Assembly: GCA_964642305.1 (NCBI GenBank)
Contig: CAZXOE010000002.1
Coordinates: 50,300-114,299 of the forward strand
Length of the DNA stretch: 64,000 nt
Reading direction: 5' to 3'
From: an uncultured Candidatus Saccharibacteria bacterium
Lineage (GTDB): Bacteria > Patescibacteriota > Minisyncoccia > Phycocordibacterales > UBA1550
Shown here: in pieces, positions 2,901 through 61,883 of the stretch
Numbering within the stretch: the stretch's first letter is position 1
How the letters are laid out: every line of letters begins with the position of its first letter
The notes under the pieces: model-generated
Database searches by the model: none
What the model was told of the DNA's origin: nothing
What the model saw: the letters and a program-made list of their open reading frames with translations, nothing else
Position numbers and translations under genes: made by a program

Positions 2901-2948
2901 TGCCAGAAGCTCGCGCACAAGCTGGTTTTCGGGTAGAATGATGAAATA

Positions 2949-3073
2949 TGAATCCCGTTAGAGGTCGCACAGTTTTTGTAGAATGGTGAGAAACGACTAT
3001 ACTGATAGGTGATACATTATTAATGAATACTAATTAACTACGGAAATTTTTAATAATTTCCTACCTCTAACGG
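2949..3073 (+). mobile_element. MITE-like mini-element copy 1 (TIR CCCGTTAGAGGT...ACCTCTAACGGG), ORF-less
   Basis: 12-bp terminal inverted repeats at 2954-2965 and 3063-3074. 9-bp direct repeats GATGAAATA at 2940-2948 and 3074-3082. The right end abuts the pgi ATG. The ends are homologous to the copies at 20241 and 40210. Confidence 0.5.
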
Positions 3074-3074
3074 G

Positions 3075-4379
3075 ATGAAATACCAGGGACACATAAAAGA
3101 AGGAGAGCATATCACTGTGGACAATGCTCGCGTGGAGGAGTATGTCGCAAAAATGCGTCTTGCAATGAGCGACAAAGCTTATTCAACCCCAGAAGCATCT
3201 CTGAGGTTGCCCTTTGACGAGGAGCTTCTAAAAAAATCAAAAAACCTCGCAAGCAAACTCGCGGGGCCAAAGCTCACGTATATTTTAGATATTGGCATCG
3301 GGGGGTCAAACCTCGGCGCAAGGGCGCTCTATGAAGCAACCGCTGGAACTATGGACGCACACACGCCATTTGCGCCAAAAATGCTTTTTGCGGACACATG
3401 CTCACCGGAGCTTCTTTCAGATATCACGGAGCTTCTCTTGAATGAAATAGGTGACAAAGAAGAAATTATAATTATTGTCGCAAGTAAGTCTGGCACAACG
3501 ACAGAAACAATCACAAATGCATCTGTGCTTGTCAGCGCGCTTGAACAAAAATTCGGATCACTCACGGATCGCATTGTGTGCATTACGGATGAGAAGTCGC
3601 CACTTTGGATTATGGCGGAAGATCAAAAATTCCATTTGCTTCCAGTTCCAAAAAATGTAGGTGGACGTTTTTCTGTTTTCTCGCCAGCCGGAGTGTTTCC
3701 GCTTCTGTGTGCTGGTATCCCTGGAGATGCGCTTATGCGTGGAGCGCAGTCCGTTATTCACGACGCTATTGAGAGAGGAGTAGAAAGTAATTCTTTTAAA
3801 TTCGCAAAAGATATTATTTCATGGCACGAACAAGGTAGAATCGTGTTTGATTTTTTTGCGTTTCACCCAGAGCTTGAGTCTCTTGGAAAATGGTATCGTC
3901 AACTTTTTGCGGAAAGTACAGGGAAAGAAAAAACAATTGACGGCGCGCCTACAACGCACCGCATGGTGCCAACTGTATCCATAGGTTCCACCGACCTCCA
4001 TTCTGTTGAACAAATGAACCTTGCGCAACAGAATATCTCAGCGCGTTTTCTTGTTCGCGCGCATGCTCCGCACTGGGAGCACCAGTTTTTGGCAGAGGAT
4101 AAAGTGTTTGCCCCACTCGTGCCAGGTGTTTCTAGGCGCGCTCCATGTGAAATTCTTGATGCCATTTATAAAGGGGTCACTGAAACATACAAGGAACGAG
4201 GAGTTTCATATGGTGAGATTTTGCTAACTGATCTTGATCCAGAGTCGCTTGGAGCGCTTATGCAGTTTATGATGTGTACCACGATGCATCTTGCAAAACT
4301 GCTTAATATCAATGCATTTGACCAGCCAAACGTAGAGGCATACAAGGAGGCTACGAGGAGGATTTTGAGCGGGAAATAA
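3075..4379 (+). CDS. pgi: glucose-6-phosphate isomerase
   Basis: DIGIGGSNLG motif (the PGI GIGGS signature). 434 aa, PGI-like throughout. Confidence 0.75.
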   Translation: MKYQGHIKEGEHITVDNARVEEYVAKMRLAMSDKAYSTPEASLRLPFDEELLKKSKNLASKLAGPKLTYILDIGIGGSNLGARALYEATAGTMDAHTPFAPKMLFADTCSPELLSDITELLLNEIGDKEEIIIIVASKSGTTTETITNASVLVSALEQKFGSLTDRIVCITDEKSPLWIMAEDQKFHLLPVPKNVGGRFSVFSPAGVFPLLCAGIPGDALMRGAQSVIHDAIERGVESNSFKFAKDIISWHEQGRIVFDFFAFHPELESLGKWYRQLFAESTGKEKTIDGAPTTHRMVPTVSIGSTDLHSVEQMNLAQQNISARFLVRAHAPHWEHQFLAEDKVFAPLVPGVSRRAPCEILDAIYKGVTETYKERGVSYGEILLTDLDPESLGALMQFMMCTTMHLAKLLNINAFDQPNVEAYKEATRRILSGK

Positions 4380-4437
4380 TATGAAAACATTTGGGACAAT
4401 GGAACACAGGCGTGACAAGAATGCACAAGATTCCTAA

Positions 4438-4472
4438 AACGCACAATCGCTACGCGATTGTGCGTTTTCCTG
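4438..4472 (+). terminator. intrinsic terminator after pgi
   Basis: aacgcacaatcg-ctacg-cgattgtgcgtt followed by a T-run. Confidence 0.6.
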
Positions 4473-4500
4473 TTCCTTTTGCTTGCCAGGATATGGTACA

Positions 4501-4605
4501 CCCCCACACCTACTTTTACCTTGTTATTTTTAGCTCGGAATAGTTCAAATTACCAGATTGTTCAGTATGCTGAAAAAATCACTAGGCAAAAAGTAGGTGT
4601 GGGGG
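4501..4605. repeat. inverted-repeat element (17-bp arms CCCCCACACCTACTTTT, ~70-bp spacer) abutting a TACAAT -10 box
   Basis: Left arm 4501-4517. Right arm 4589-4605 is a perfect reverse complement, immediately followed by TACAAT and then the ATG at 4643. A second copy lies at 34026-34130. Confidence 0.5.
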
Positions 4606-4642
4606 TACAATATACCCATTAGTAACTATTAATATTTTATTT

Positions 4643-5053
4643 ATGAAGCACATTGGAAAATACGCAGGTGTACTCGCAATTCTTGCAATGCCGGCAATCA
4701 CTTTTGCCGAAGGTGGCTTGAATGGCACATTGCAAACATTAATTACCATCGAAGATAACTCAAAGATGTTTGAGATGATTTCGCTCTGGGCGACCCTTAT
4801 TGTTGCTTTTGCGACAAGCATGATGGTGTGGGTTGGTGGGAGACATATGCATGGCGGAGTTTTTGGAAGCGTGCTAACTTTTTTTAGTATCGGTATGACA
4901 CTCATATTTCTCGGGATTGCGACAGAGGTGCCGTGGCTTGAAAACTTTGACCAGCTCTATCTAAAGATGATTCACGACTCACTATATATTATAGGCTACA
5001 TACTTATGGGTGTTGCCGCAAGCAAGCTTCTAAAAGTTATTAAAGGCGAATAA
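4643..5053 (+). CDS. small membrane protein (signal peptide plus 3 TM), unknown function
   Basis: 136-aa ORF with a hydrophobic profile. Confidence 0.4.
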   Translation: MKHIGKYAGVLAILAMPAITFAEGGLNGTLQTLITIEDNSKMFEMISLWATLIVAFATSMMVWVGGRHMHGGVFGSVLTFFSIGMTLIFLGIATEVPWLENFDQLYLKMIHDSLYIIGYILMGVAASKLLKVIKGE

Positions 5054-20211: not shown

Positions 20212-20240
20212 TTTTACGCAGTCGTGGTATGCTCATTTTT

Positions 20241-20522
20241 ATGAATCCCGTTAGAGACCCCTCAGTTATGTATTACACCTATGTTATCGAGAACGATAAA
20301 GGTACATGGTATACTGGAAGTACGGGAGACCTACGGAAACGCTTTAGAGAGCACAACGAAGGGCAGGCCAACATGGACAAAAGGTAAAGGTTTGTGGAAG
20401 GTTATTTATTACGAAGCATGTCTTAATGAGCAAGATGCTCGGTCGAGAGGGATGTATTTAAAATCAAGAATGGGTAAGCGCTATCTAAAAAGTAGACTAA
20501 AGCGTTTCCTGTCTCTAATGGG
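20241..20522 (+). mobile_element. TIR mini-element copy 2 carrying a GIY-YIG nuclease ORF (TIR CCCGTTAGAGAC...GTCTCTAATGGG)
   Basis: Left end ATGAATCCCGTTAGAG is identical to the first 16 nt of copy 1. Right TIR at 20511-20522 abuts the argS ATG at 20523. Confidence 0.55.
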
Positions 20523-20526
20523 ATGA
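20268..20526 (+). pseudogene. GIY-YIG nuclease (YhbQ/UPF0213-like), interrupted by a +1 frameshift
   Basis: Frame 0 gives MYYTYVIENDKGTWYTGSTGDLRKRFREHNEGQ, the GIY-YIG core. Frame +1 continues TKGKGLWKVIYYEA...YLKSR. A 1-nt shift lies near 20370. The ORF track splits it into 20199..20387 and 20281..20526. Confidence 0.55.
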
Positions 20527-22269: not shown

Positions 22270-23005
22270 AAAGGGGTCAGGTACCTTTGATTTGTGATAT
22301 AGTCTTAGTATATAATACAAACATGCCACGACTACCACGCGTTGATGTTGGAGGAGAAATTTATCACGTCATTAATCGTGCAAATGCACGGTTGCCAATT
22401 TTTTTTAAAGAAGACGACTATAAACTTTTTGAGACAATTATTGAGGAAGCGCAGATTAAATTTGGTATGAGGATTCTCGCGTATTGTTTTATGCCAAATC
22501 ATTTTCATCTTGTATTACATCCAAACAGTGACGGTGATTTGCAGAAGTTTATGCAATGGCTCACGCTTACTCATACTCAACGCTGGCACACAAAAAATGG
22601 AACGACAGGAACTGGACATCTATATCAAGGACGATACAAGTCTTTTCTTGTCCAAGGCGACAGGCACTTACTTACTATTATTCGCTATGTAGAGAGAAAT
22701 CCACTGCGGGCAAAATTGGTCAAGAAAATTGAAAACTGGAATTTCTCAAGCCTCGCTAGGCGACTTTCTGGCAATCCTAAAAAGAATAAATTACTTGAAA
22801 AGTGGCCGATTGAAATGCCAAAGAATTATCTAGCCTTTGTGAACGAACCTATGAATAAAAATGAAGAAGATGTAATCAGGTACTCTGTTAATAGAAGCAA
22901 GCCTTTTGGATCGGACACATGGAGCAGTAGAATGATCGATAAGCACGGGCTAGAGGCGACGATGCGCAACAGGGGAAGACAAATCAAAGGTACCTGACCC
23001 CTTTG
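22270..23005 (+). mobile_element. IS200-like/RAYT unit bounded by 20-bp inverted repeats (AAAGGGGTCAGGTACCTTTG / CAAAGGTACCTGACCCCTTTG)
   Basis: The IRs at 22270-22289 and 22985-23005 are perfect reverse complements. The right IR overlaps the stop codon. Confidence 0.55.
22323..22997 (+). CDS. IS200/IS605-family Y1 (HUH) transposase, REP-associated tyrosine transposase-like
   Basis: HUH motif MPNHFHLVL and a catalytic Tyr region RYVERNPLRA. The TATATAATACAAAC promoter is fused to the ATG. Confidence 0.7.
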   Translation: MPRLPRVDVGGEIYHVINRANARLPIFFKEDDYKLFETIIEEAQIKFGMRILAYCFMPNHFHLVLHPNSDGDLQKFMQWLTLTHTQRWHTKNGTTGTGHLYQGRYKSFLVQGDRHLLTIIRYVERNPLRAKLVKKIENWNFSSLARRLSGNPKKNKLLEKWPIEMPKNYLAFVNEPMNKNEEDVIRYSVNRSKPFGSDTWSSRMIDKHGLEATMRNRGRQIKGT

Positions 23006-29116: not shown

Positions 29117-29185
29117 GGCGTTTCCTATTCTGTCTGTCCTATTACCTATTTACATCTATAGATGTAAATAGGTAATAGGACAGGA
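29117..29185. repeat. palindrome containing CCTATTTACATCTATAGATGTAAATAGG
   Basis: Imperfect ~69-bp palindrome whose 28-bp core recurs at 29779-29808. Confidence 0.6.
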
Positions 29186-29199
29186 AACGCTGGAAGTCT

Positions 29200-29763
29200 T
29201 TAAAGATTAAAATATTTTCGTACCCGAGACTCGTTTTCTATATCGCTAGCAGTAATAAGAAAAATATGTTCTCTCACATTAAAACAATCCCCTAAAAAAT
29301 CAACTTCTTTTTTGCATTCGAACGGTGTTATGAAAACAGATTTTTGGTATGGGTAGCAATTTGCTTTTTTTAACAGTTTATTTAATGCTTGCCTTGAGAA
29401 CTTCTTTTCTTCTGGTATATCAAACATTATTATTCGCCATTTTTTGTCCCACTTTTCGTGTTTATCAGACCTGTCTAATTTTAGATTATTTAGTCGAGCT
29501 TCTTTCCTGCCTTTGTCAGTAAGCGCAACATAAATCTCACCTCCACGATTCTCCATTTTTATTAAACCTTTATTTTTTAAACTTCCTGCTGAGCGTCTTA
29601 TTTTTAGTTTTATTTTCCCATCTTCAATATCAATATATTTGAGCAACTGCGCCAGGTTTGGAAGCGCGAGAATCATAACAAAAGCCCCAGTCGTTAGCAG
29701 AGAGGTTAGGATAATTTTTGAAATCTCACCTTTATCGTATTTTTGTGTATGGCTATTATTCAC
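29200..29763 (-). CDS. PaaX-like protein (winged-helix N-terminus, Cas2-fold C-terminal domain), N-terminal TM
   Basis: KWDKKWRIIMFDIPEEKK...QKSVFITP matches the PaaX C-domain / Cas2-like fold pattern (W.G.W..V.FDIPE....R.....L...G....SV). No cas genes or array nearby. Confidence 0.4.
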   Translation of the reverse strand: MNNSHTQKYDKGEISKIILTSLLTTGAFVMILALPNLAQLLKYIDIEDGKIKLKIRRSAGSLKNKGLIKMENRGGEIYVALTDKGRKEARLNNLKLDRSDKHEKWDKKWRIIMFDIPEEKKFSRQALNKLLKKANCYPYQKSVFITPFECKKEVDFLGDCFNVREHIFLITASDIENESRVRKYFNL

Positions 29764-29778
29764 TGTTAAAAGTATACC

Positions 29779-29808
29779 TATTTACATCTATAGATGTAAA
29801 TAGGTATA
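29779..29808. repeat. 28-bp perfect palindrome CCTATTTACATCTATAGATGTAAATAGG (second copy)
   Basis: Identical core to 29140-29170. The pair brackets the PaaX-like gene. Confidence 0.6.
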
Positions 29809-29933: not shown

Positions 29934-32900
29934 ATGACAGAATCTGAAAAGAAACTCTCTGATATTGCAAAACGCGAGGAGGAAACTCTTGCGAGCTGGC
30001 AGTCTGCTGATATTTTTGAAAAGACGCTTGAGCAAACTAAAAATGGTGAAAGTTTTGTTTTCTATGACGGGCCTCCATTCGCGACTGGCCTTCCGCACTA
30101 CGGACACATACTTGCAAGCACAATCAAGGATGCGATACCTCGCTATCAAACCATGCGTGGGCGATACGTTCGCCGTGTATGGGGTTGGGACTGCCACGGT
30201 CTTCCAATTGAAAACCTAATAGAAAAGGAGCTTGGGCTTGAACACAAAAAAGATATTGAGGAATATGGTGTAGAAAAATTTAACGAGGCGTCACGCGCTT
30301 CGGTGTATCGCTATGATGCAGAATGGAAAAAGTTTATTCCGCGAATCGGGCGATTCGTTGATATGGATCACTCATATAGCACGATGGATGCAGGCTACAC
30401 CGAAAGCGTATGGTGGGCTTTTAAGGAGCTTTTTAAAAAAGGTCTCGTGTATCAGGGTTTTAAGCCGATGCATATTTGTCCGAGGTGCGAGACAACACTT
30501 TCAAACAATGAAGTAACGAGTAACTATAAAGACATAACCGATATTTCAGTCACGGCAAAATTTGAGCTTGTTAAAGAGCCGGACACATACATTCTCGCGT
30601 GGACTACGACACCTTGGACTCTCCCAGGAAATGTGGCACTCGCAGTTTCTCCAGACTCTGAGTATGTGAAAGTAGCAATAGGGGACGAGAAATATATTTT
30701 GGCTGGAGAACGCGCTGAGGCAGCTCTTTCTGGGAAAGAGTACACAATAGTTTCGCGAATGAAAGGTTCTGAACTTGTTGGCGCAGAGTACAAACCAATT
30801 TTTGATTATTACTCAGAACAGGGAACGCTGGACAATCGCGAAAATGGATGGAAAGTGTACGGAGCAGAATTTGTAACAATGGAGAGCGGTACTGGAGTGG
30901 TGCACATCGCGCCAGCCTTTGGCGAGGACGATATGAATCTCGGCACAAAAGAAAATTTGCCGTTTATACAACATGTTGCAATGGATGGCACAATGAAAAA
31001 AGAAGTTCGGGATTTTACCGGTGTTTCTGTGAAGCCAAAGTCTGACGAAAAGGATGGACATCAAGCGACGGATATTTTAATTATTAAACACCTTGCAGGC
31101 GCTGGCGCGCTTTTTTCAAAAGAAAAAATTATTCACGCGTACCCGCATTGTTGGCGTTGCGAGACACCGCTTTTAAACTACGCGGCTCAATCGTGGTTTG
31201 TGAAAGTACCTGAACTAAAAGATAAACTTCTTGCAGAGAACGCAAAAACATCTTGGGTGCCAAAAAATATGCGCGACGGGCGTTTTGGAAAGTGGCTGGA
31301 AGGCGCGCGCGATTGGGCAATCTCGCGCTCGCGATATTGGGGAGCGCCAATTCCAGTGTGGGAATGTGAAAAATGTGAGGCGAGGGAAGTGTTTGGCTCT
31401 CGTGCGGAGCTTTCTCTGCGTGTGAAAAAATCCGGCAACAAATATATTGTAATGCGTCACGGCGAGGCAGAAAGCAATGTTAAGAGAGTTGTGAGTTCAA
31501 AAACAGACGGAAGCTCAGCGTACGGACTTACAGCAAACGGGCGCGCATTAGTAGAGGAGACTGGCAAGAAACTAAAAGAAAAAGGAATTGACATTATCAT
31601 CACGTCGCCTTTTGTGCGCACAAAGGAGACTGCGGAGATAGTCGCCGGAGCTATTGGTTTTGATACGCGAAAGATTATTGTTGATGAGCGCATCAAAGAA
31701 ATTGACACAGGGGTTTTTGACGGAAGATCAATTGACGAGTATCGCGGACACTTCGTTTCGATGGCGGAAAAATTCACAAAGAGACCCGAGGGAGGGGAGA
31801 ATTTGCTTGATGTGAAGCGTCGAGCCATGGCTCTTCTTGAAGATCTTGAAAAAGAGTACGCAGGCAAGACTATTCTTATTGTCACGCACGAATATCCTAT
31901 CTGGATGCTTATGACAGGAATAGAAGGAGCGAGCATTACGCGCGGAATAGAGATAAAAGACGGCAAAGAAGATTTTGTAGAGACCGGAGAAGTAAAAGAA
32001 ATACAGTACAGCCCATTCCCACACAATGCGGATTTTGAATTTGACCTGCACTTGCCGTACATAGACACTGTGGGTTTGTTGTGTAGTTGCGGTGGTAAAA
32101 TGAAGCGTGTCCCGTATGTTTTTGACTGCTGGTTTGAGTCTGGCTCAATGCCATACGCGCAGTTCCATTATCCGTTTGAAAACAAGGAACTTTTTGAAAA
32201 GAATTTTCCTGCGGATTTTATTGCTGAGGGTGTGGATCAAACACGTGGGTGGTTTTACTCCATGATGGTTCTTTCCGTTGCGCTCTTTGGTAAGGCTCCG
32301 TTTAAAAACGTAATAGTGAACGGAATGACGCTCGCGGAGGATGGGCAAAAGATGTCGAAGAGTCGCAAAAATTATCCCGACCCAGTGGATGTGATCAACA
32401 AATATGGCGCGGACGCTGTGCGTTATTATATGCTGTCGTCTCCGATAGTGCATGCGGAAGATCTTGCGTTTTCAGAAATGGGTGTAGATGAAGTTGTTAA
32501 AAAAAATATCGCTCGCCTTCTCAATGTGCTTTCCTTCTACAAGATGTATGGAGGAAGCGCTGCGCCTACCAAAGGGGAGAGTGAAAACCCTCTCGATCAA
32601 TGGATTCTCGCGCGTCTCGCAGAGCTTACGACAGAAATGACTAACGCTTTTGATAATTATGAACTTGATCGCGTGGTAAAACCTGTTGGACTTTTTATTG
32701 ATGATTTATCCACATGGTATATTCGTCGTTCACGAGAACGCTTTAAGTCAGATGAGACTGTGGATCGCGCGCATGCTATCGAAACGACACGCGTGGTACT
32801 TTTGGAGCTCTCAAAACTTATTGCGCCTGTGATGCCGTTTCTCGCGGAGCATATATATCAAAATGTCGGAGGTAACAAGGAAAGCGTGCATCTTGAAACT

Positions 32901-33425
32901 TGGTCGAAATCAAAAGAAGTAAACTCAGAAATTCTTGCAAGAATGGAAGAAGTTCGTCGAGTCGTCTCTGTTGCTCTTGAGGATCGCGCGAACGCCGGGT
33001 TGAAAGTTAGGCAACCACTTTCTTCGGTAACAATTCCATCTGTACTCAAAATTAATGTTTCTGATGAGGCGATCATCACCGATGAAATTAATGTGAAGCG
33101 TGTAATACGATCAGATGCTCATGATGCAAAAATTGAGATTGATAGAGAGATTACTCCAGAACTCAAAAAAGAAGGGCAGTTTCGTGATGTACTACGCACT
33201 GTACAAGAGTTACGCAAATCTGAGAATCTTAATCCTGCTGATAAAGTAGTGTTAAATGTGCATACTGATGATGATGGTAAAGAATTTCTGGAGTTATTTA
33301 AAGATGATTTAAAGAAGACCGCACTTTTGCTAGATATTCGTTTTACTAGTGATTTATTTGCGCAAGGGGGGAGCGCAAGCATTTCTTTTGATAAATTTTC
33401 TTTTGATTTTACTTTAGATAAATAA
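29934..33425 (+). CDS. ileS: isoleucyl-tRNA synthetase with an inserted histidine-phosphatase (PGAM-like) domain
   Basis: HIGH (PHYGH) and KMSKS present, plus the editing domain (WTTTPWTLPGN). A ~220-aa insert between VWECEKCE and HLPYID contains RHGEAESN...SPFVRTKETAEI. Confidence 0.9.
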   Translation: MTESEKKLSDIAKREEETLASWQSADIFEKTLEQTKNGESFVFYDGPPFATGLPHYGHILASTIKDAIPRYQTMRGRYVRRVWGWDCHGLPIENLIEKELGLEHKKDIEEYGVEKFNEASRASVYRYDAEWKKFIPRIGRFVDMDHSYSTMDAGYTESVWWAFKELFKKGLVYQGFKPMHICPRCETTLSNNEVTSNYKDITDISVTAKFELVKEPDTYILAWTTTPWTLPGNVALAVSPDSEYVKVAIGDEKYILAGERAEAALSGKEYTIVSRMKGSELVGAEYKPIFDYYSEQGTLDNRENGWKVYGAEFVTMESGTGVVHIAPAFGEDDMNLGTKENLPFIQHVAMDGTMKKEVRDFTGVSVKPKSDEKDGHQATDILIIKHLAGAGALFSKEKIIHAYPHCWRCETPLLNYAAQSWFVKVPELKDKLLAENAKTSWVPKNMRDGRFGKWLEGARDWAISRSRYWGAPIPVWECEKCEAREVFGSRAELSLRVKKSGNKYIVMRHGEAESNVKRVVSSKTDGSSAYGLTANGRALVEETGKKLKEKGIDIIITSPFVRTKETAEIVAGAIGFDTRKIIVDERIKEIDTGVFDGRSIDEYRGHFVSMAEKFTKRPEGGENLLDVKRRAMALLEDLEKEYAGKTILIVTHEYPIWMLMTGIEGASITRGIEIKDGKEDFVETGEVKEIQYSPFPHNADFEFDLHLPYIDTVGLLCSCGGKMKRVPYVFDCWFESGSMPYAQFHYPFENKELFEKNFPADFIAEGVDQTRGWFYSMMVLSVALFGKAPFKNVIVNGMTLAEDGQKMSKSRKNYPDPVDVINKYGADAVRYYMLSSPIVHAEDLAFSEMGVDEVVKKNIARLLNVLSFYKMYGGSAAPTKGESENPLDQWILARLAELTTEMTNAFDNYELDRVVKPVGLFIDDLSTWYIRRSRERFKSDETVDRAHAIETTRVVLLELSKLIAPVMPFLAEHIYQNVGGNKESVHLETWSKSKEVNSEILARMEEVRRVVSVALEDRANAGLKVRQPLSSVTIPSVLKINVSDEAIITDEINVKRVIRSDAHDAKIEIDREITPELKKEGQFRDVLRTVQELRKSENLNPADKVVLNVHTDDDGKEFLELFKDDLKKTALLLDIRFTSDLFAQGGSASISFDKFSFDFTLDK

Positions 33426-33428
33426 TTT

Positions 33429-34016
33429 ATGTCGCATCATATCTACCACACTCGTGGAATTATTTTGAGTAGCTCTGCGGTCGGCGAATCAAACCGCGTT
33501 TATAAAGTTTTTACTGAGGAGCTCGGGCTTATTCTAGGAACGGCACAATCAGTGAGAGAGGGGAAGTCGAAGCTTAGATACACACTCCAAGATTTTTCTA
33601 TTGTGAATGTTGATCTTGTGCGAGGAAAAGAAGTGTGGAGAATAGTGAGCGCAGGTGGGCATCAAACACTAGGCACTATAAAAAAAGACCCTGTTCGACT
33701 AAAACTTTTTGCGAGCTACTCCTTTTTACTGTCGAGACTTCTTCATGGCGAGGGAAGAGATCAAGAACTTTTTGATGAGATAGTACGCGTCGCGGATTTT
33801 ATAGAAAAAACAGCAATTCCACAGGAACTAACATTATCATTTGAAGCACTATCTACTATGCGTGTCCTCGTGCATTTGGGTTATATGGACCAAGAAGGGT
33901 ATGAAAAGTTTTTGAGTAAAAATACATACTCAGTTAGTATTTTGGAAAATTTTGAAAAAATACGCTCAAAAGTTCTTCACAAAATTAACACATCGTTAAG
34001 TGCTTCACATTTGTAG
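33429..34016 (+). CDS. recO: DNA repair protein RecO (short form)
   Basis: N-terminal OB-fold pattern GIILSSSAVGESNRVYKVFTEELGLILGTAQSVREGKSK. Confidence 0.55.
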   Translation: MSHHIYHTRGIILSSSAVGESNRVYKVFTEELGLILGTAQSVREGKSKLRYTLQDFSIVNVDLVRGKEVWRIVSAGGHQTLGTIKKDPVRLKLFASYSFLLSRLLHGEGRDQELFDEIVRVADFIEKTAIPQELTLSFEALSTMRVLVHLGYMDQEGYEKFLSKNTYSVSILENFEKIRSKVLHKINTSLSASHL

Positions 34017-34025
34017 TCGTGATAC

Positions 34026-34130
34026 ACCACCATACCTACTTTTACAAAAAATGAAGTTGTGCCAAGGCATGACCATGGCTTAGTTAGGTCGAATCTATTG
34101 ATTAGGCTATACAAAAAGTATGTGTGGGGG
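34026..34130. repeat. second copy of the 17-bp-arm inverted-repeat element, right arm abutting TACAAT
   Basis: caccaccatacctactttt ... aaaagtatgtgtggggg|tacaat, followed 3 nt later by the ATG at 34140. Confidence 0.45.
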
Positions 34131-34139
34131 TACAATAGA

Positions 34140-36053
34140 ATGATGTCAGATGATGTAAAAAGCAAAATCTCCGAGCTTGAAAAGCAGCTGTACTCAAAGG
34201 ATTTCAAACAACACAGAGTGGGGGATATTTTGCCACATAAAGAAGTTTCAGGTGCGCCGTCGTGGGACGCGAAAGAGGAAGCAATATCCCTCCGTGAAGA
34301 CGAGGTTGCCAGTATAAAACGCCACAATCTTATGAAAAAATTTGTTAAATATTCTATGTGGTTTTTTGCGCTAGCTGTTGGGGTCGCGGTGTTTATTTGG
34401 TGGCGCGGTTCAAATATTATTTCTGGAGACAAACTTCTCATTGATATTGAGTACCCAGTTACAATTTCTGGAGGCGAGCCTTTTGAAACAAAATTTGCGA
34501 TAACAAACAACAATAAAGTCGCAATTGAAGCCTCAACCCTTTTTGTAGAGTATCAAGAAGGTTTTTACTCCGTTCCAGGTAAGGTAGAAATCCCTCATAT
34601 ATCAAAAAATATTGGCATAATTACACCCGGACAATCAATTTCAGAAACTATAAACACAATGCTTTATGGAGAGGAGAATACCAGCAAGGAGGCCCGCGTG
34701 ACTTTTGAATATCGTATGGCTGGCTCAAATGCAACCATTAAAAAAACTACAAGATATGCTATAAAAATTTCTTCGTCGCCTGTTAATCTCAGTCTCTCGA
34801 TGCCAAAAGAAATTAGCTCTGGACAAGACATAGAATTTTCTGTTGATCTTAGTTCAAACAGTAGAGATTCACTAGGAGCGCTTCTTGTTGAAGCCGTATA
34901 TCCGCTTGGATTTAGTTTTCAAAGCGCAACACCAGCTCCAACATACGGAGAAAATGTTTGGCGTGTTTCTGGGTTGTCCCCTCATGAAAAAATAACAATA
35001 AAGATTCGTGGTTATGTAGAGGGGCAGGAGAGTGAAGAAAAGGTAACAAAAGTTTCCGTTGGCACAGAAGACCAGAGAGACGAACGTATTATTGGTATCT
35101 TGTATAATGCGGCTAGCGAGTCAAGCCTAATTGCAAAACCGTTTCTTGAAATTGACATAGCTGTGAACAATAATAGATCGCAGGATAATGTTACATCCTC
35201 AGGGAAAGGTGTTCGTGTTGATGTATTTTGGCAAAATAACAATTCAACAAGAATTACAGATGCTGTCATTGAGGTAAAGCTCAAAGGTGCCGCTCTCAAT
35301 AAATATTCTTTATACGCGTCCGGAGGAGGTTTTTATAGATCATTGGATAATACTATTATTTGGGACAAAATAGGGAATAAGGATCTCGCCATCATAGAGC
35401 CTTCTGCAAGAGGTACAATGAGTTTTAGCTTTTCGCCAATCGCTCTTGGTGTTGGCGCGGAGCATCCTATAAAGAATCCACAAATAATTTTTGAGGTTCG
35501 CGCGCGAGCGAATAGAATTAGTGACGCGAGCTCATCAGAAAACCTGTCTACATTTGTGACGCGTAGTGTAAAATTTGAAACAGATTTGAAGGTTATTGCG
35601 AAAGGATTGTTTTTTTCTGGACCATTTCAAAACATAGGACCAATACCACCGCAGGCTGACAAAGAAACAACCTACACTATCTCCCTAAACGCGCGCAATT
35701 CATCAAACAATGTTTCAAATACAGTTGTAAAGACAACCTTACCTATCTATGTGAAGTGGCTTGGAAAGATTGATCCTCTAGGTGAGGATATAACGTTCAA
35801 TGACAGCACAGGTGAGGTAATATGGAACGTTGGGCGCATACCATCTGGAGGCTTCCGCGACACGTCGTTTCAAATTTCGTTTATTCCTAGTGTGAGCCAT
35901 ATCAATCGCGCGCCACTACTCACTGGTGATATCACTATTTCCGCGATGGACGACTTTACAAAGACCGAGGTTCGAGACAAAAAACCCGCGTTGACCACCT
36001 ATATTTCCGGCGACCCACAATTTAGCCCAAATGACGCAAATGTGGTAAATTAG
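34140..36053 (+). CDS. membrane-anchored extracellular protein, unknown function
   Basis: Coiled-coil N-terminus, one TM (FALAVGVAVFIWW), and a large predicted beta-rich ectodomain. The ORF track begins at a GTG at 34059. Confidence 0.5.
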   Translation: MMSDDVKSKISELEKQLYSKDFKQHRVGDILPHKEVSGAPSWDAKEEAISLREDEVASIKRHNLMKKFVKYSMWFFALAVGVAVFIWWRGSNIISGDKLLIDIEYPVTISGGEPFETKFAITNNNKVAIEASTLFVEYQEGFYSVPGKVEIPHISKNIGIITPGQSISETINTMLYGEENTSKEARVTFEYRMAGSNATIKKTTRYAIKISSSPVNLSLSMPKEISSGQDIEFSVDLSSNSRDSLGALLVEAVYPLGFSFQSATPAPTYGENVWRVSGLSPHEKITIKIRGYVEGQESEEKVTKVSVGTEDQRDERIIGILYNAASESSLIAKPFLEIDIAVNNNRSQDNVTSSGKGVRVDVFWQNNNSTRITDAVIEVKLKGAALNKYSLYASGGGFYRSLDNTIIWDKIGNKDLAIIEPSARGTMSFSFSPIALGVGAEHPIKNPQIIFEVRARANRISDASSSENLSTFVTRSVKFETDLKVIAKGLFFSGPFQNIGPIPPQADKETTYTISLNARNSSNNVSNTVVKTTLPIYVKWLGKIDPLGEDITFNDSTGEVIWNVGRIPSGGFRDTSFQISFIPSVSHINRAPLLTGDITISAMDDFTKTEVRDKKPALTTYISGDPQFSPNDANVVN

Positions 36054-40188: not shown

Positions 40189-40209
40189 ATTGCAGTCGTG
40201 GTTACTTGT

Positions 40210-40327
40210 CCCGTTAGAGATAACTCAGTTATGTTTTCGGCGATAATGGGATATACTGAGATTACTATTATTAGAAGTTAAATATAATTAAGATAAGGAA
40301 ATTTAATAATTTCCTATCGCTAACGGG
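40210..40327 (+). mobile_element. TIR mini-element copy 3 (CCCGTTAGAGATA...TATCGCTAACGGG), ORF-less deletion derivative
   Basis: Left end shares cccgttagaga..ctcagttatg with copy 2. Right end shares ggaaatttaataatttcctaNNNctaacggg with copy 1. It abuts the metG ATG. Confidence 0.5.
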
Positions 40328-41896
40328 ATGACAGAAAAAAAATTCTACATCACTACGCCTATTTTTTACGCGAATGCGGAGCTCCATTTAGGGCACACAT
40401 ATACGCTTGTTTTGTCAGACGTTTTAGCGCGATATCATCGCTTTGTAGGAGACAATACTTTTTTCCTAACAGGCTCCGATGAGCATGGCGACAAAATTGT
40501 GCGTTCTGCGCAAAAGGAAGGCATGGGGCCTCAGGCGTTTGTAAATATAAATGTCGCAAAAATGGAGGTGCTTATTCAGGAGCTTGGTATATCAAATGAT
40601 CTATTTATTCGCACCTCCGATCAAGAGCATCATTGGTCAGGAGCAAAGAAGCTGTGGCACGCGCTTGAGGAAGCTGGTGATATTTACAGGGGCACATACA
40701 AAGGGCTTTACTGTGTTGGGTGCGAGGCATTCATTACCGAAAAAGAATTAGTGAGTGGCAAATGTCCTTTGCATGACGCTCCACCAGAGCATATTGAAGA
40801 AGAAAATTATTTTTTCAAACTTTCAAAATATGGCCCTGAAATAAAACGATTACTTGAAAGTGGAGAATTAAAAATTACTCCCCATTCACGAGTAAATGAA
40901 ATAGTTTCACTCATCTCTGGTGCGAACGGAGAGAGTGCTTTGGTAGATGTGAGTATCTCTCGCCCAGAGCGCGCGATACCGTGGGGGATACCTGCGCCAA
41001 GTGACCCAACACAGCTAATGTATGTGTGGTGCGACGCGCTTTCAAACTACATTTCTGCTCTTGGCTACGGTACAGACAATGATGAAAATTTCAAAACTTT
41101 TTGGCCAGCGGATATTCAGGTGTTGGGCAAAGACATACTTCGTTTCCACGCGCTCCTTTGGCCAGCATTTTTATTGTCAGCGAAGATTCCGCTACCACGC
41201 GAGCTTTTGGTCCATGGGTTTGTCAATTCAGGAGGGAAGAAGATGTCTAAGTCCTTGGGTAACGTGTTGAGTCCGGGTGAATTTATTTCAGAGTATGGCA
41301 GGGACGCGCTTCGGTATTACCTTACGAGAGAGGTAACTCCCGTGGATGATTGGGATTTAACCCGAGAAAAATTTAAAGAAGTTTACAATGCAAACCTGGC
41401 AAATGGCTTGGGGAACCTTGTATCACGCACTTTAAAAATGGCTGAATCGTATTTTGGAGGAGTGGTAAAAGGTGACGCGACACGTGTACCTCCTATTAAA
41501 ACAAAAATGTCCGATGTGGAAACGTTTGATGAAATTGCAGGTATTAATATTCCATATATTATTACAAATGACATTTTGCCACGTTACCATAAACATATGA
41601 GCGCGAATGAGATAAATAGAGCAGCGGACGTAATTTGGGAGCTCATTGGGCATCTAGATCAATTTGTTACAGATTATGAGCCATTTAAGCTTGTGAAGAC
41701 AGACAAGGAGTCTGCGGAGGCTGTAATTTGGTGTCTTTTGTACGGACTTCGCGAGGTTGGCCAAATGCTTACGCCAATGATGCCAGATACAGCGCAAAGG
41801 ATTATAACGCTTGTTGGCGCATCCGATGTCAAGGCTGATGAAATGGTCTTTAATGCAAAAGCACTCACCGAACCGCTTTTTATGCGCAAAGAGTAG
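40328..41896 (+). CDS. metG: methionyl-tRNA synthetase
   Basis: HIGH motif (ELHLGHTY) and KMSKS. Confidence 0.9.
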   Translation: MTEKKFYITTPIFYANAELHLGHTYTLVLSDVLARYHRFVGDNTFFLTGSDEHGDKIVRSAQKEGMGPQAFVNINVAKMEVLIQELGISNDLFIRTSDQEHHWSGAKKLWHALEEAGDIYRGTYKGLYCVGCEAFITEKELVSGKCPLHDAPPEHIEEENYFFKLSKYGPEIKRLLESGELKITPHSRVNEIVSLISGANGESALVDVSISRPERAIPWGIPAPSDPTQLMYVWCDALSNYISALGYGTDNDENFKTFWPADIQVLGKDILRFHALLWPAFLLSAKIPLPRELLVHGFVNSGGKKMSKSLGNVLSPGEFISEYGRDALRYYLTREVTPVDDWDLTREKFKEVYNANLANGLGNLVSRTLKMAESYFGGVVKGDATRVPPIKTKMSDVETFDEIAGINIPYIITNDILPRYHKHMSANEINRAADVIWELIGHLDQFVTDYEPFKLVKTDKESAEAVIWCLLYGLREVGQMLTPMMPDTAQRIITLVGASDVKADEMVFNAKALTEPLFMRKE

Positions 41897-54124: not shown

Positions 54125-54318
54125 TTTTACTAGGGACTAAGTAACAACGAAAAGAGTCTTAGTCTCAAATTAGGTCAATGCGTCGCTTCAGAGAAATTAT
54201 CTCGAACGAGCTAAACCCAAAACGAAACTAACCTCCCTGCCCGCCACTGCCTGTCGCTCCTGAATTAGCAAATTCACGTCTTGGACGCAAATGAGCAGTT
54301 AGGCGATGGCAGGCGGGA

Positions 54319-54357
54319 ATTCAGAAAAAGACCCCTTTCTCTTACGAGAAAGGGGTC
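54319..54357 (+). terminator. intrinsic terminator
   Basis: gacccctttctc-ttac-gagaaaggggtc with flanking A and T runs. Confidence 0.6.
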
Positions 54358-54375
54358 TTTTTCGTGCTCAAATCC

Positions 54376-54411
54376 CCAAGCTCCCCAAGGCCCGGCCTAT
54401 GTACATAGGCC
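54376..54411. repeat. 36-bp perfect palindrome CCAAGGCCCGGCCTATGTACATAGGCCGGGCCTTGG (REP-like, left of RAYT #2)
   Basis: Read directly; identical to 55109-55144. Confidence 0.85.
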
Positions 54412-54434
54412 GGGCCTTGGTATATAATACAAGC

Positions 54435-55088
54435 ATGAGGAAGCTCAATTTTTCTATTCATGAATACTACCATCTCTACAGTCGTGGTACCGACAAACGT
54501 ATTATATTTAGCGATGAAGAAGACAAGCAAAGATTTTTACATCTCTTGTATCTCTGTAATACTGACAGCAGTCTAATATTTAGAGAGATACCCATAGGCC
54601 GGGCCTATGAAGAGAGAAAAGGAGATACTTTGGTTAATATTGGAGCATATTGCATGATGCCAAATCACTTCCACCTACTTGTTAGAGAGAAGAAGGATGG
54701 TGGAATCACGAAATTTATGGGTAAATTACTAACATCGTATTCAATGTACTTTAACAAGAAATATAAGCGTACTGGGACTTTGTTTGAGAGTAGATTTAAG
54801 GCAAAGCATGCTAATGATGATAAATACTTGAAGTATTTATTTGCTTATATTCATCTAAACCCAGTTAAGATTATTGATCCAAAATGGAAGGAAAATGGGA
54901 TTAAGGATCGAGATAGTGCTGAGGAATATCTAGAAAGTTATCAATATTCGAGTTACGCGGATTACGTAGGCGACCATCGTAAGGAGAGCAACATCCTTAA
55001 TAAGCGAGTGTTTCCAGAGTATTTTTCAAAGCAGCAGGAATTTAAAGAATTCATAAAAGAGTGGCTATCCTATGGCAATATAGTGTAG
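54435..55088 (+). CDS. IS200-like Y1 (HUH) transposase / REP-associated tyrosine transposase (RAYT)
   Basis: HUH motif MPNHFHLLV and a Tyr region YIHLNPVK. The TATATAATACAAGC promoter is fused to the ATG. The ORF track's upstream extension is discounted. Confidence 0.7.
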   Translation: MRKLNFSIHEYYHLYSRGTDKRIIFSDEEDKQRFLHLLYLCNTDSSLIFREIPIGRAYEERKGDTLVNIGAYCMMPNHFHLLVREKKDGGITKFMGKLLTSYSMYFNKKYKRTGTLFESRFKAKHANDDKYLKYLFAYIHLNPVKIIDPKWKENGIKDRDSAEEYLESYQYSSYADYVGDHRKESNILNKRVFPEYFSKQQEFKEFIKEWLSYGNIV

Positions 55089-55108
55089 CCCCGAGGACTA
55101 CCAAACCA

Positions 55109-55144
55109 CCAAGGCCCGGCCTATGTACATAGGCCGGGCCTTGG
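55109..55144. repeat. 36-bp perfect palindrome, identical second copy (right of RAYT #2)
   Basis: Read directly. Confidence 0.85.
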
Positions 55145-61164: not shown

Positions 61165-61554
61165 ATGACAGAAAACAAAGATGTGGTAGTTCCTGCAAAG
61201 TTCAAGGACTTGGTAGAAAAGATCGAGACAATGACTGTTCTCGATCTTCACGAGCTTGTAAAGGTGCTCGAGGAGAAGTTCGGTGTTTCAGCAACTGCAG
61301 CAGCAGCCGCTCCAGCAGCAGCAGCCGCAGGCGCAGAGGAGAAGGATTCATTCAACGTAGAACTTTCAGCTTCAGGCGACACAAAAATCGCCGTTATCAA
61401 GGTTGTAAAGGAAGTTCTTGCTCTTGGTTTGAAGGAGGCAAAGGACCTTGTAGACGCAGCGCCTTCAATGCTAAAGGAAGGCATGAAGAAGGCAGACGCA
61501 GACGAGTTCAAGAAGAAATTGGAGGAAGCAGGCGCAAAGGTAACTTTGAAGTAA
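61165..61554 (+). CDS. rplL: 50S ribosomal protein L7/L12
   Basis: Ala-rich hinge and a C-terminal ...[22 protein letters not shown]... Confidence 0.9.
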
Positions 61555-61558
61555 TCGC

Positions 61559-61620
61559 ATTGCACTCCAAAAGAAAAACCCAAGGAAACTCCTTGGGTTT
61601 TTCTTTTGGAGTGCAATATT
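61559..61620 (+). terminator. strong intrinsic terminator after rplL (26-bp stem)
   Basis: ttgcactccaaaagaaaaacccaagga-aa-ctccttgggtttttcttttggagtgcaa. Confidence 0.7.
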
Positions 61621-61883
61621 CAAAGTTACCTTTGCGCCTGCGGCGAGTGGTGTCAGGAGAACACCTGTTCTCCTGTGGAGGAGAGCAGTGAGCTTGTACT
61701 CAAGCGAGCGTTGAGAGAGTGGGTGAGAAGCGAGCGTGCGGAGCTTCGCAAGGCCGGACTGAGCGAAGGCGAAGGAGGCGGGGTAGCGCAATTCGCCAGC
61801 AGGCGAATATGTGTGACCTCAAGGAGGAGTACTCTCCGACGGCTGGTGCAAAGGTTACTCTCAAGTAACCCGCAGTAAATGCT
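61621..61883 (+). ncRNA. candidate structured non-coding RNA (class unassigned)
   Basis: GC- and purine-rich island with no protein-like ORF. 5' AGUUACCUUUGCGCCUGCGGCGAG pairs with 3' CUCCGACGGCUGGUGCAAAGGUUAC. Several internal hairpins. Bracketed by two terminators. Confidence 0.35.

What the first reader, a model, noticed from the sequence alone, without database searches (positions are those of the whole stretch)
4501..4605. Inverted-repeat element whose right arm is welded to a TACAAT -10 box (copy 1)
CCCCCACACCTACTTTT (4501-4517) and AAAAGTAGGTGTGGGGG (4589-4605) are perfect 17-bp reverse complements ~70 bp apart. The right arm runs straight into TACAAT, and the ATG follows 27 nt later. 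A second locus (34026-34130) has the same architecture and nearly the same arms (one or two substitutions), again ending ...GTGTGGGGG|TACAAT, 3 nt before a leaderless ATG. Either this is a mobile promoter-carrying cassette or a conserved promoter-proximal stem-loop that regulates initiation.
Basis: seen in the sequence. Interest (0 to 1): 0.5.

Follow-up and report, generated by a model that had tools for sequence, protein, structure and literature searches.

The report
Small transposon inserted in promoter
The inverted repeat is the pair of ends of a 105-bp non-coding mobile element (a MITE) that jumped into the -10 box of a gene's promoter in an uncultured ultra-small (CPR) bacterium and copied four bases of that box, which is why its right arm looks "welded" to TACAAT.

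Summary
Two 104-105 bp units (4501-4605, 34027-34130) share 17-bp terminal inverted repeats and have unrelated interiors. It is not a conserved regulatory stem-loop. It is a miniature transposable element.

Both copies are flanked by a direct TACA repeat. Removing the unit plus one TACA gives TGGTACAAT and TGATACAAT. Those are exactly the intact extended -10 promoters found, with no insert, at the same two intergenic sites in related Yonathbacteria (six empty sites fetched).

Public scans gave about 94 distinct copies in CPR genomes and metagenomes:
- Identical 4-nt direct flanks occur in 60/94 (10.5 expected).
- Among non-palindromic flanks, 40 are direct repeats and 1 is inverted.
- Arm spacing falls into three classes, about 35, 70 and 100 nt.

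About half of the copies lie on a -10 hexamer just upstream of a gene start. A CTTG class lies on -35 hexamers. One element end, which carries a -35-like hexamer 17 bp from the regenerated -10, almost always faces the gene.

So the -10 box belongs to the host, and the element may supply a substitute -35. No transposase partner was found. A 4-bp duplication and CC termini suggest an IS1380/piggyBac-like enzyme, but this is only a lead. I judge it a new family of a known kind, with an unusual association with promoter hexamers.

The parts
4436..4468 (+). Terminator-like hairpin of the upstream pgi gene (3075-4379). It is context only and not part of the element.
   Evidence: 15-pair stem followed by a T-run.
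4494..4500 (+). Displaced upstream half of the host promoter of copy 1: the extended -10 'TGg' plus the left copy of the target-site duplication TACA (4497-4500).
   Evidence: Empty orthologous sites read taTGgTACAATat in L143, L145 and L146.
4501..4517 (+). Left terminal inverted repeat of copy 1 (the 'A end'), CCCCCACACCTACTTTT.
   Evidence: The same 17-mer ends about 94 distinct elements in CPR contigs.
4518..4588 (+). Interior of copy 1: 71 nt, non-coding, and unrelated in sequence to other copies. Its last 9 nt, cACTAGGCA (4580-4588), are the polar 'B-end' subterminal motif. TAGGCA (4583-4588) is a -35-like hexamer 17 bp from TACAAT.
4589..4605 (+). Right terminal inverted repeat of copy 1 (the 'B end'), AAAAGTAGGTGTGGGGG. 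Its 17 bp occupy the spacer between the -35-like hexamer and the -10 hexamer.
4606..4611 (+). Host -10 hexamer TACAAT. Its first four bases (4606-4609) are the right copy of the target-site duplication.
4643..5053 (+). Downstream gene served by this promoter: a 136-aa membrane protein with no Pfam family above threshold.
   Evidence: The gene order pgi / this gene / 89-aa ORF / histidine kinase is kept in relatives.
34020..34026 (+). Displaced upstream half of the host promoter of copy 2: 'TGa' plus the left TACA (34023-34026), just after the recO stop codon (34014-34016).
34027..34043 (+). Left terminal inverted repeat of copy 2 (CCACCATACCTACTTTT, 2 mismatches to the consensus).
34044..34113 (+). 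Interior of copy 2 (70 nt). It ends in the B-end motif gGCTATACA. TATACA (34108-34113) is a -35-like hexamer 17 bp from TACAAT.
34114..34130 (+). Right terminal inverted repeat of copy 2 (AAAAGTATGTGTGGGGG, 1 mismatch).
34131..34136 (+). Host -10 hexamer TACAAT. The bases 34131-34134 are the right copy of the target-site duplication.
   Evidence: Empty orthologous sites read TGgTATAAT + 6-10 nt + ATG in L137 and L141.
34143..36053 (+). Downstream gene: a 636-aa DUF11-repeat protein, probably leaderless because its ATG lies 6 nt after the -10 hexamer.

Best explanation

A transposase supplied in trans, not identified here, binds the 17-bp terminal inverted repeats CCCCCACACCTACTTTT...AAAAGTAGGTGTGGGGG. 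It makes a 4-bp staggered cut in the target, so the inserted element ends up flanked by a 4-bp direct duplication.

In the window both copies landed inside the -10 hexamer of an extended -10 promoter (TGnTACAAT). The upstream TGnTACA was pushed 105 bp away. The downstream TACA plus the following AT rebuilds an intact TACAAT directly against the right arm. That is the 'weld'.

Shown:
- repeat structure;
- target-site duplication;
- multi-copy family;
- presence/absence at orthologous sites;
- preference for promoter hexamers;
- polarity of the element relative to the gene.

Inferred:
- The gene is still transcribed from the regenerated -10.
- That -10 now uses the element's subterminal hexamer (TAGGCA / TATACA) as a substitute -35, with the 17-bp arm as the spacer. 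This is a hybrid promoter, and only insertions in this orientation survive.
- The enzyme is a DDE transposase of the IS1380/piggyBac type.
For: (1) Empty sites.
- For copy 1, four relatives with the same gene order read ...TGgTACAATat... (L143, L145, L146) or ...TGaTATAATgc... (L144) with no insert. The window reads ...TGgTACA[105 bp]TACAATat....
- For copy 2, L137 and L141 read TGgTATAAT + ATG with no insert. The window and L049/L139 carry an insert flanked by TACA/TACA and TATA/TATA respectively.
- A third case: L007 is filled and its orthologue L002 is empty.

(2) Target-site duplication.
- Among 94 distinct elements, 60 have identical 4-nt flanks. Shuffled partners give a mean of 10.5 and a maximum of 20.
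- Of 66 non-palindromic left flanks, 40 are direct repeats and 1 is an inverted repeat.
- Controls offset by 2 to 8 nt give 0 identical flanks; an offset of 1 nt gives 7.

(3) Family.
- 14 loci were found in four Yonathbacteria/Paceibacterota MAGs, several per genome.
- The arm order is always the same, and the sizes fall into classes.

(4) Host promoter type. TGnTAnnnT with a 6-13 nt leader is the usual promoter in this window.

(5) Promoter association.
- 48/94 elements have TAnnnT directly at a flank, against 1.7% per position in the background.
- 41/94 also have an ORF start within 45 nt of that flank.
- TGn precedes the distal duplicate in 16/38.
- CTTG-flanked copies sit on cTTGCA-N17-TGnTAnnnT promoters in 7-8 of 13 cases.

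(6) Polarity.
- The gene-proximal inner hexamer matches TTGACA better than the distal one (3.63 vs 2.58, p = 1.6e-6).
- At least 4/6 matches occur in 21 proximal versus 4 distal hexamers, of 38.
- The motif aCTAKRCA is found only on the proximal side in 25 cases and only on the distal side in 0.
- The consensus scan picks TAGGCA-17-TACAAT and TATACA-17-TACAAT in the two window copies.
Against: - No autonomous element or transposase with these ends was found in about 0.94 Mb of fetched loci. The largest arm spacing seen is 240 nt.
- Interiors of copies in the same genome are at background similarity, apart from one recent duplicate pair, L001/L008. Yet partner arms average only about 0.7 mismatches per 17 nt. 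This is unusual for a family that spreads by bursts from a master copy. It means the arms are kept either by continued mobility or by a host function.
- The -35-like hexamers are weak matches (T-A-K-R-C-A), and the polarity motif was defined after looking at the data.
- The consensus promoter scan does not exceed its shuffled expectation in number of sites.
- No transcription data exist.
- Window copy 2 and L049 sit at the same site but have different duplications on both sides (TACA/TACA versus TATA/TATA). This requires either independent insertions or parallel change.
Confidence: 0.88

Rival explanations
1. Host regulatory module. The two arms are operators for a DNA-binding protein, possibly a domesticated transposase. 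On this view the elements, whatever their origin, are now kept by the host as a regulon-wide control device at promoters. This can coexist with a MITE origin.
For: Arms are nearly invariant while interiors are saturated. The length within the Yonathbacteria class is held at 69-73 nt. The arm lies exactly between the -35 and -10 positions, where a bound protein would block RNA polymerase. The same promoter is occupied in two lineages: window copy 2 and L049, and L006 and L011.
Against: Close relatives run the same promoters without the element. Arm spacing varies from 2 to 240 nt across the family. Many copies are not at promoters: 53 of 94 have no -10-like flank with a gene start. No candidate binding protein was identified. 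L006 and L011 have opposite polarity at orthologous genes.
Confidence: 0.12
2. REPIN-like element mobilised by one of the IS200-like (Y1/HUH, RAYT-type) transposases encoded in the window.
For: The window encodes two Y1_Tnp proteins (22287-22997 and 54306-55088), each flanked by its own inverted repeats or palindromes. REPINs are inverted pairs of conserved arms with a less conserved spacer of about 70-110 nt (my own knowledge). The arm contains GTAG, the tetranucleotide typical of REP sequences (my own knowledge, and possibly a coincidence).
Against: Y1 transposases insert without duplicating the target (established knowledge of IS200/IS605). Here there are clear 4-bp duplications of many different sequences. 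The individual arms are not palindromic. The repeats flanking the two Y1 genes are unrelated to the arm sequence.
Confidence: 0.04
3. A conserved RNA or DNA stem-loop that is native to these promoters and controls initiation, processing or termination.
For: The units fold very stably as single strands: -51 kcal/mol with z = -7.2, and -36.7 kcal/mol with z = -3.2.
Against: The stability is just the terminal repeats. Interiors share no structure or sequence. Orthologous promoters lack the unit. There is no Rfam match. No T-run follows the stem. With a start site after TACAAT, the stem would not be transcribed into the mRNA of the downstream gene.
Confidence: 0.03
4. Invertible (phase-variable) promoter segment flipped by a site-specific recombinase acting on the inverted repeats.
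For: Inverted repeats bracket a short segment next to a gene start.
Against: The polarity of the interior relative to the gene is fixed: 25 proximal versus 0 distal for the motif. Independent assemblies of the same locus show one orientation. A segment of about 70 bp, and as little as 2-35 bp in other copies, is too short for such switches. The flanks are target duplications. No recombinase gene lies nearby.
Confidence: 0.01

Closest known systems
Bacterial MITEs, in particular the Correia repeat enclosed elements (CREE/NEMIS) of Neisseria
   Same: Both are short non-coding units with terminal inverted repeats and a target duplication. Both are present in many copies, differ between strains, and lie mostly 5' of genes. 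Both come in discrete length classes (CREE: 153-157, 104-108 and 69-73 bp). CREE can generate promoter sequences at their ends and form hairpins when transcribed (PMC2649163). No transposase is known for CREE either.
   Different: CREE have a conserved core, whereas here the interiors are unrelated. CREE duplicate TA and have about 26-bp repeats (my own knowledge). The elements here duplicate 4 bp, have 17-bp repeats, and sit inside the -10 or -35 hexamer itself, so the host hexamer is regenerated. The host phylum is different (CPR), and there is no sequence similarity.
IS1380 family insertion sequences and their eukaryotic relatives piggyBac
   Same: The duplication is 4 bp (occasionally 5), the ends begin with CC.../...GG, and targets are AT-rich. 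From my own knowledge, ISfinder lists 4-5 bp duplications and 'CC' ends for IS1380, and piggyBac has a TTAA duplication with CCC...GGG termini. The pairing of piggyBac with IS1380-like elements is stated in PMC5718144.
   Different: No transposase gene was found, so this is a resemblance of the ends only. The duplicated sequences are not TTAA. IS5 and IS701 elements also give 4-bp duplications.
Hybrid (fusion) promoters created by insertion sequences that carry an outward-facing -35 hexamer near one end
   Same: An element-borne -35-like hexamer is combined with a resident -10 hexamer at 16-18 bp (review PMC9330008). Here the combinations are TAGGCA-17-TACAAT and TATACA-17-TACAAT.
   Different: In the known cases the element lands upstream of a chance or silent -10 and activates a gene. 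Here it lands in a working -10 hexamer, duplicates its first four bases, and would merely restore what it broke. Function here is inferred, not measured.
REPINs (REP doublets) with their RAYT transposases
   Same: Both are inverted pairs of conserved short arms with a poorly conserved spacer, and both are extragenic. Y1 transposase genes flanked by repeats are present in the window.
   Different: REPINs have no target duplication, and each REP arm is itself a small palindrome. Neither condition holds here.

Membership tests
MITE (non-autonomous TIR transposable element) | Short (tens to a few hundred bp) with no coding capacity | tested here: met
   Element lengths are 36-274 bp, with modes near 69, 105 and 135 bp. 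No ORF lies inside the window copies.
MITE (non-autonomous TIR transposable element) | Terminal inverted repeats | tested here: met
   The 17-bp arms are perfect in copy 1 and have 3 mismatches in total in copy 2. Partner arms across the family have 0-1 mismatch in 73 of 86 cases.
MITE (non-autonomous TIR transposable element) | Target-site duplication of fixed length flanking the repeats | tested here: met
   4-nt direct repeats occur in 60/94 elements against 10.5 expected. Among non-palindromic flanks, 40 are direct and 1 is inverted. Both window copies have TACA/TACA.
MITE (non-autonomous TIR transposable element) | Several copies per genome at unrelated sites | tested here: met
   There are 2 copies in this 64 kb window, at least 9 in JBAZWZ01 and at least 6 in MHUW01. 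The downstream genes are unrelated.
MITE (non-autonomous TIR transposable element) | Presence/absence at orthologous sites, with the empty site equal to the flanks plus one copy of the duplication | tested here: met
   Copy 1: L143-L146 are empty. Copy 2: L137 and L141 are empty. L007 is filled and L002 is empty.
MITE (non-autonomous TIR transposable element) | A related autonomous element with the same ends that encodes the transposase | tested here: not met
   No arm pair more than 240 nt apart and no transposase ORF between arms was found in 135 loci totalling 0.94 Mb. The public scans were capped, so absence is not shown. Many accepted bacterial MITEs, such as CREE, also lack a known partner.
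IS1380 / piggyBac-type element | 4-5 bp target duplication and ends beginning with CC | tested here: met
   Searches show both features. A few copies show 5-bp repeats (TATAA, TTATA, TTTGC). That these features define the family rests on my own recollection of ISfinder.
IS1380 / piggyBac-type element | DDE transposase of that family acting on these ends | not testable with these tools
   No candidate protein is available.
REPIN / RAYT system | Insertion without target duplication, arms individually palindromic, and a RAYT gene flanked by the same arms | tested here: not met
   Duplications are present. The arms are not self-complementary. The Y1_Tnp genes in the window are flanked by unrelated repeats.
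Correia element (CREE) family | Correia repeat sequence, conserved core and TA duplication | tested here: not met
   The ends are different, there is no conserved core, and the duplication is 4 bp. The comparison is with the description in PMC2649163 and my own knowledge.
Structured RNA family (Rfam) | Match to a curated covariance model | tested here: not met
   There were 0 matches at gathering thresholds in the whole window.

The most novel reading that the evidence does not exclude
This may be a MITE family specialised to live inside promoter hexamers. It would insert at the 5' edge of the -10 hexamer (TAWA) or the -35 hexamer (CTTG), so that the duplication regenerates the hexamer. Its 17-bp terminal repeat would double as an optimal -35/-10 spacer, and its polar end would bring a portable -35.

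That would give the element a near-neutral 'safe haven' in the extremely compact CPR genomes. It would also place the same protein-binding 17-mer in the core of dozens of promoters, so that a transposase-derived protein could co-regulate them.

The near-invariant arms next to saturated interiors, the fixed length classes, the strict polarity, and the repeated occupation of the same promoters in different lineages are all compatible with this reading. None of them proves it.
Probability: 0.25. Interest if true: 0.7.

Novelty: new member of a known kind. Interest (0 to 1): 0.45.

Why it matters
CPR/Patescibacteria genomes are tiny, gene-dense and usually described as poor in mobile DNA. Here a family of transposable elements persists in them, apparently by sitting in the only non-coding DNA available, the promoters themselves.

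Three things follow:
- It explains a recurrent 'motif' that could otherwise be mistaken for a regulatory site or a promoter element when these genomes are annotated.
- It gives direct comparative evidence for what promoters look like in uncultured Yonathbacteria: extended -10 TGnTAnnnT, often leaderless, and sometimes with TTGCAn at -35.
- It provides natural filled and empty allele pairs for testing how a promoter tolerates the loss of its upstream half.

If the polarity reflects a portable -35, this would be a clean natural example of a transposon that repairs the promoter it breaks.

Tried and rejected
- Rfam scan of the window: no family matched.
- tRNA/tmRNA scan: none found, so the element is not a tRNA-linked integration site.
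- Viral contig scan with the arm: three hits, all single arms inside phage coding sequence. I judged them chance matches.
- Search for an autonomous partner. I looked for arm pairs up to 3 kb apart and for ORFs next to solo arms in all fetched loci. None was found. About 25 of the 40 solo arms lie in GC-rich contigs and look like chance matches.
- Literature searches for MITEs in CPR/Patescibacteria gave nothing relevant. One search was malformed.
- Test of whether window copy 2 and the copy at the same site in L049 are orthologous insertions. Interior identity is 0.60 against a background of 0.57 +/- 0.06, so this cannot be decided.
- Operator-pair and DNA-looping idea: rejected as the primary explanation because of the empty sites and the 2-240 nt range of arm spacing.
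- IS200/IS605-type insertion 3' of a fixed tetranucleotide: rejected because the matching flanks take many different sequences while the arms stay constant.
- Divergent-promoter idea, with the left arm also followed by a -10: the left flank TGnTACA|CC lacks the -7 T. It is explained as the displaced half of the host promoter.
- One Pfam call failed on wrong coordinates.

Full report
**1. The observation**

The sequence is as described. CCCCCACACCTACTTTT (4501-4517) and AAAAGTAGGTGTGGGGG (4589-4605) are perfect reverse complements separated by 71 nt. A second unit has arms at 34027-34043 (2 mismatches) and 34114-34130 (1 mismatch), 70 nt apart. These four arms are the only matches with up to 3 mismatches in the 64 kb window. 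Shuffles give 0.16 expected, and none of 100 reached four. Both right arms are followed at once by TACAAT.

The two interiors do not align. Their identity of 0.54 is below the 0.57 mean for random pairs of family members.

The window is a bacterial chromosome segment of about 43% GC, with no tRNA gene and no Rfam match. Copy 1 lies between pgi (3075-4379, with a terminator-like hairpin at 4436-4468) and a 136-aa membrane protein gene (4643-5053). Copy 2 lies between recO (33429-34016) and a 636-aa DUF11 protein gene.

**2. The detail that decides it**

Both units are flanked by the same four bases in direct orientation:
- ggTACA|CCCCC...GGGGG|TACAat
- gaTACA|CCACC...GGGGG|TACAat

Deleting a unit together with one TACA gives aTGgTACAAT and gTGaTACAAT. 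These are extended -10 promoters of the form TGnTAnnnT. That is the ordinary promoter type upstream of genes in this window. Examples are TGCTACACT + 6 nt + ATG at 37825, TGCTATGAT + 6 at 39118 and TGTTATACT + 7 at 61959.

**3. Direct test with empty sites**

RecO homologues and homologues of the 136-aa protein led to contigs from related organisms with the same gene order.

At the copy 1 site, four relatives have no insert:
- L143: ...cccgggtaTGgTACAATatattcattagtaac...
- L145: ...gacgatgTGgTACAATatgttcattag...
- L146: ...ccgcttaTGgTACAATatacgcattag...
- L144: ...ctatttaTGaTATAATgcacctattag...
- The window: ...caggataTGgTACA[105 bp]TACAATatacccattagtaac...

At the copy 2 site:
- L137, no insert: tagtcgTGgTATAATatatattaagATGccagatgatg
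- L141, no insert: tagacaTGgTATAATagcgagATGtcagacgatg
- The window: TGaTACA[104 bp]TACAATagaatgATGtcagatgatg
- L049 (identical to L139), a Yonathbacteria relative whose RecO is 75% identical: TGaTATA[103 bp]TATAATtacataATG

A third pair came from the public genomes. L007 carries an element in the TATACT box of an exonuclease III-like gene, and the orthologue in L002 has a bare ggttcgcTATACTgtaaagtATG.

So the TACAAT belongs to the host. The unit is an insertion that duplicated four target bases.

**4. The family**

A gapped two-arm pattern found 14 loci in the species-representative genome collection. All are in Candidatus Yonathbacteria / Paceibacterota / Minisyncoccia MAGs, with several loci per genome.

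Across all fetched DNA there are 119 arm pairs and 94 distinct elements. The order is always CCCCC...TTTT - interior - AAAA...GGGGG. Arm-to-arm spacings cluster at about 33-36, 69-73 and 97-104 nt, with a range of 2-240. The longest class has repeats that extend to about 35 nt.

The 4-nt flanks behave as target-site duplications:
- They are identical in 60/94 elements. Shuffled partners give a mean of 10.5 and a maximum of 20.
- For non-palindromic flanks, 40 are direct repeats and 1 is an inverted repeat.
- Offsets of 2 to 8 nt give zero identical flanks; an offset of 1 nt gives 7.
- The duplicated sequences are TATA (19), CAAG/CTTG (13), TAAA/TTTA (11), TACA/TGTA (6), ATAA/TTAT (5) and others.

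Given one exact arm, the partner arm has 0, 1, 2 or 3 mismatches in 40, 33, 11 and 2 cases. Interiors, by contrast, are at background similarity even within one genome. The single exception is a recent duplicate pair, L001/L008, at 97%.

These are the defining features of a MITE. The one feature not met is a transposase-encoding partner. None was seen among the fetched loci, and the viral hits are chance matches.

**5. Association with promoter hexamers**

- 48 of 94 elements have TAnnnT starting exactly at a flank. The background is 1.7% per position.
- 41 of them also have an ORF of at least 80 codons starting within 45 nt on that side, typically 12-15 nt from the arm. That corresponds to -10 + 6-9 nt + ATG, i.e. 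leaderless or nearly so.
- The other copy of the duplication is preceded by TGn in 16 of 38 cases, against 1 in 16 expected. The pre-insertion sites were therefore genuine extended -10 promoters.
- The downstream genes are unrelated (SMC, a P-type ATPase-like protein, exonuclease III and others), so these are independent events.
- The CTTG class lies one hexamer further upstream. In 7-8 of 13 cases the flank reads cTTGCA-N17-TGnTAnnnT (L129, L004/L032, L052, L012, L057, L029). Here the duplication regenerates the -35 hexamer and leaves the whole core promoter intact.

I cannot tell whether this pattern reflects true promoter targeting, or a sequence preference (TAWA, CTTG) combined with loss of every insertion that hits coding DNA in these dense genomes.

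**6. Polarity and the likely consequence for the promoter**

The element is not symmetric. One end, which I call the B end, carries a subterminal motif aCTAKRCA directly inside the arm.

Among the 38 copies with arm spacing of at least 24 nt that have a -10-like flank and a gene start on one side only:
- The motif is on the gene side only in 25 and on the far side only in 0. The motif was defined after inspecting the data, and two clear exceptions, L006 and L012, carry variant motifs on the far side.
- The hexamer exactly 16-18 bp upstream of the regenerated -10 matches TTGACA better on the gene side (3.63 vs 2.58 of 6, Wilcoxon p = 1.6e-6).
- At least 4/6 matches occur in 21 gene-side hexamers versus 4 far-side hexamers.
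- Short-class copies show TTGAAA, TTGATA or TTGGAA there.

In the window the consensus scan picks TAGGCA-17-TACAAT (4583-4611) and TATACA-17-TACAAT (34108-34136).

The insertion removes the TG of the extended -10. The arm is exactly 17 bp long. My inference is therefore that surviving insertions are those in which the element supplies a replacement -35 at optimal spacing. This is the hybrid-promoter principle known from insertion sequences (PMC9330008). It is an inference; there are no expression data.

**7. Which enzyme**

A 4-bp (sometimes 5-bp) duplication of mostly AT-rich targets, with ends beginning CC.../...GG, fits what I recall for the IS1380 family. It also fits its eukaryotic relatives, piggyBac, which have a TTAA duplication and CCC...GGG ends. 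The IS1380-piggyBac relationship is stated in PMC5718144. IS5 and IS701 elements also make 4-bp duplications. Without a protein this stays a lead.

The two IS200-like Y1 transposase genes in the window are unlikely drivers. Y1 enzymes do not duplicate targets, and the repeats flanking those genes are unrelated to the arm.

**8. Rival readings**

- A native regulatory stem-loop or operator pair is contradicted by the empty sites and by the variable arm spacing.
- An invertible switch is contradicted by the fixed polarity and the target duplications.
- A host function layered on top of a MITE origin, with the arms acting as protein-binding sites inside promoter cores, is not excluded. It would account for the very high conservation of the arms next to saturated interiors and for the fixed length classes. 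Continued cut-and-paste mobility, with loss of dead copies, would explain these features too.

**9. Comparison and verdict**

The closest described analogues are bacterial MITEs such as the Neisseria Correia elements. Those also occur in three length classes, lie 5' of genes, create promoters and lack a known transposase (PMC2649163). This family differs from them in sequence, in duplication length, in lacking a conserved core, in host phylum, and in sitting inside promoter hexamers.

I found no description of it.

It is a new family of a well-known kind of element. The 'weld' to TACAAT is fully explained by a 4-bp target-site duplication within the host's -10 box. The promoter-hexamer association and the polarity are the parts worth following up.

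Noticed in passing
window 2947-3078, 20240-20526, 40203-40331: A second, unrelated inverted-repeat family (ATCCCGTTAGAG...CTCTAACGGGAT) sits directly on start codons. Its right end overlaps the host ATG (..ACGGGATGAaa before pgi at 3075, and likewise at 20523 and 40328). Copies 1 and 2 are flanked by a direct TGAA/ATGAA repeat. The 287-bp copy contains a frameshifted GIY-YIG-like ORF (MNPVRDPSVMYYTYVIENDKGTWYTGSTGDLRKRFREHNEGQ...) whose TGA overlaps the host ATG. It looks like a GIY-YIG mobile element together with ORF-less derivatives.
   Followed up: partly
window 22270-23004 and 54385-55144: Two IS200-like Y1 transposase ORFs are present (Pfam Y1_Tnp, E = 5e-18 and 3e-10). One is bracketed by a perfect 26-nt inverted repeat. 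The other is bracketed by two identical 37-nt palindromes. This is a RAYT/IS200-like arrangement.
   Followed up: partly
window 29143-29806: A 187-aa ORF on the minus strand (29200-29763) has a PaaX_M / Cas2-like domain. It is bracketed by two identical 32-nt palindromes, TACCTATTTACATCTATAGATGTAAATAGGTA.
   Followed up: no
window 61528-61641: A perfect 23-nt inverted repeat, with 68 nt between the arms, encloses a perfect 28-bp hairpin (61559-61617). This nested palindrome lies downstream of the gene ending at 61554.
   Followed up: no
L087, L034, L016, L061, L031, L122 (also L072, L098): Copies of the same MITE family with a TTAT/ATAA duplication abut TTATCCACAG, which matches the DnaA-box consensus TTATCCACA. 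It is unknown whether these are orthologous origin-region sites or a further target class.
   Followed up: no
L001 4086-4309, L013 1357-~1600, L008 7855-8000, L014 2517-2746 / L131: In MAG JBAZWZ01 the elements occur as head-to-head pairs that share a TGTA/TACA junction. The inner arm of one partner is interrupted (CCCCC-tgcccagttctct-TGCCTACTTTT), and the two outer B ends face divergent genes. L014 holds a direct 126-bp tandem duplication of the element.
   Followed up: partly
window 34023-34134 vs L049 2931-3041: The same recO-downstream promoter is occupied in two lineages, but both copies of the duplication differ together (TACA/TACA versus TATA/TATA). The interiors are no more alike than random family members. 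This implies either repeated insertion into the same hexamer or parallel change. L006 and L011 occupy orthologous promoters with opposite polarity.
   Followed up: partly
window 29934-33425: The isoleucyl-tRNA synthetase (1163 aa) carries a histidine-phosphatase domain (His_Phos_1) inserted within the synthetase core. The same architecture is seen in the relatives' orthologues.
   Followed up: no
window, upstream of many genes (e.g. 7126, 37825, 39118, 61959): Many genes have TGnTAnnnT only 6-7 nt before the ATG and no Shine-Dalgarno sequence. This suggests widespread leaderless expression in this organism.
   Followed up: partly
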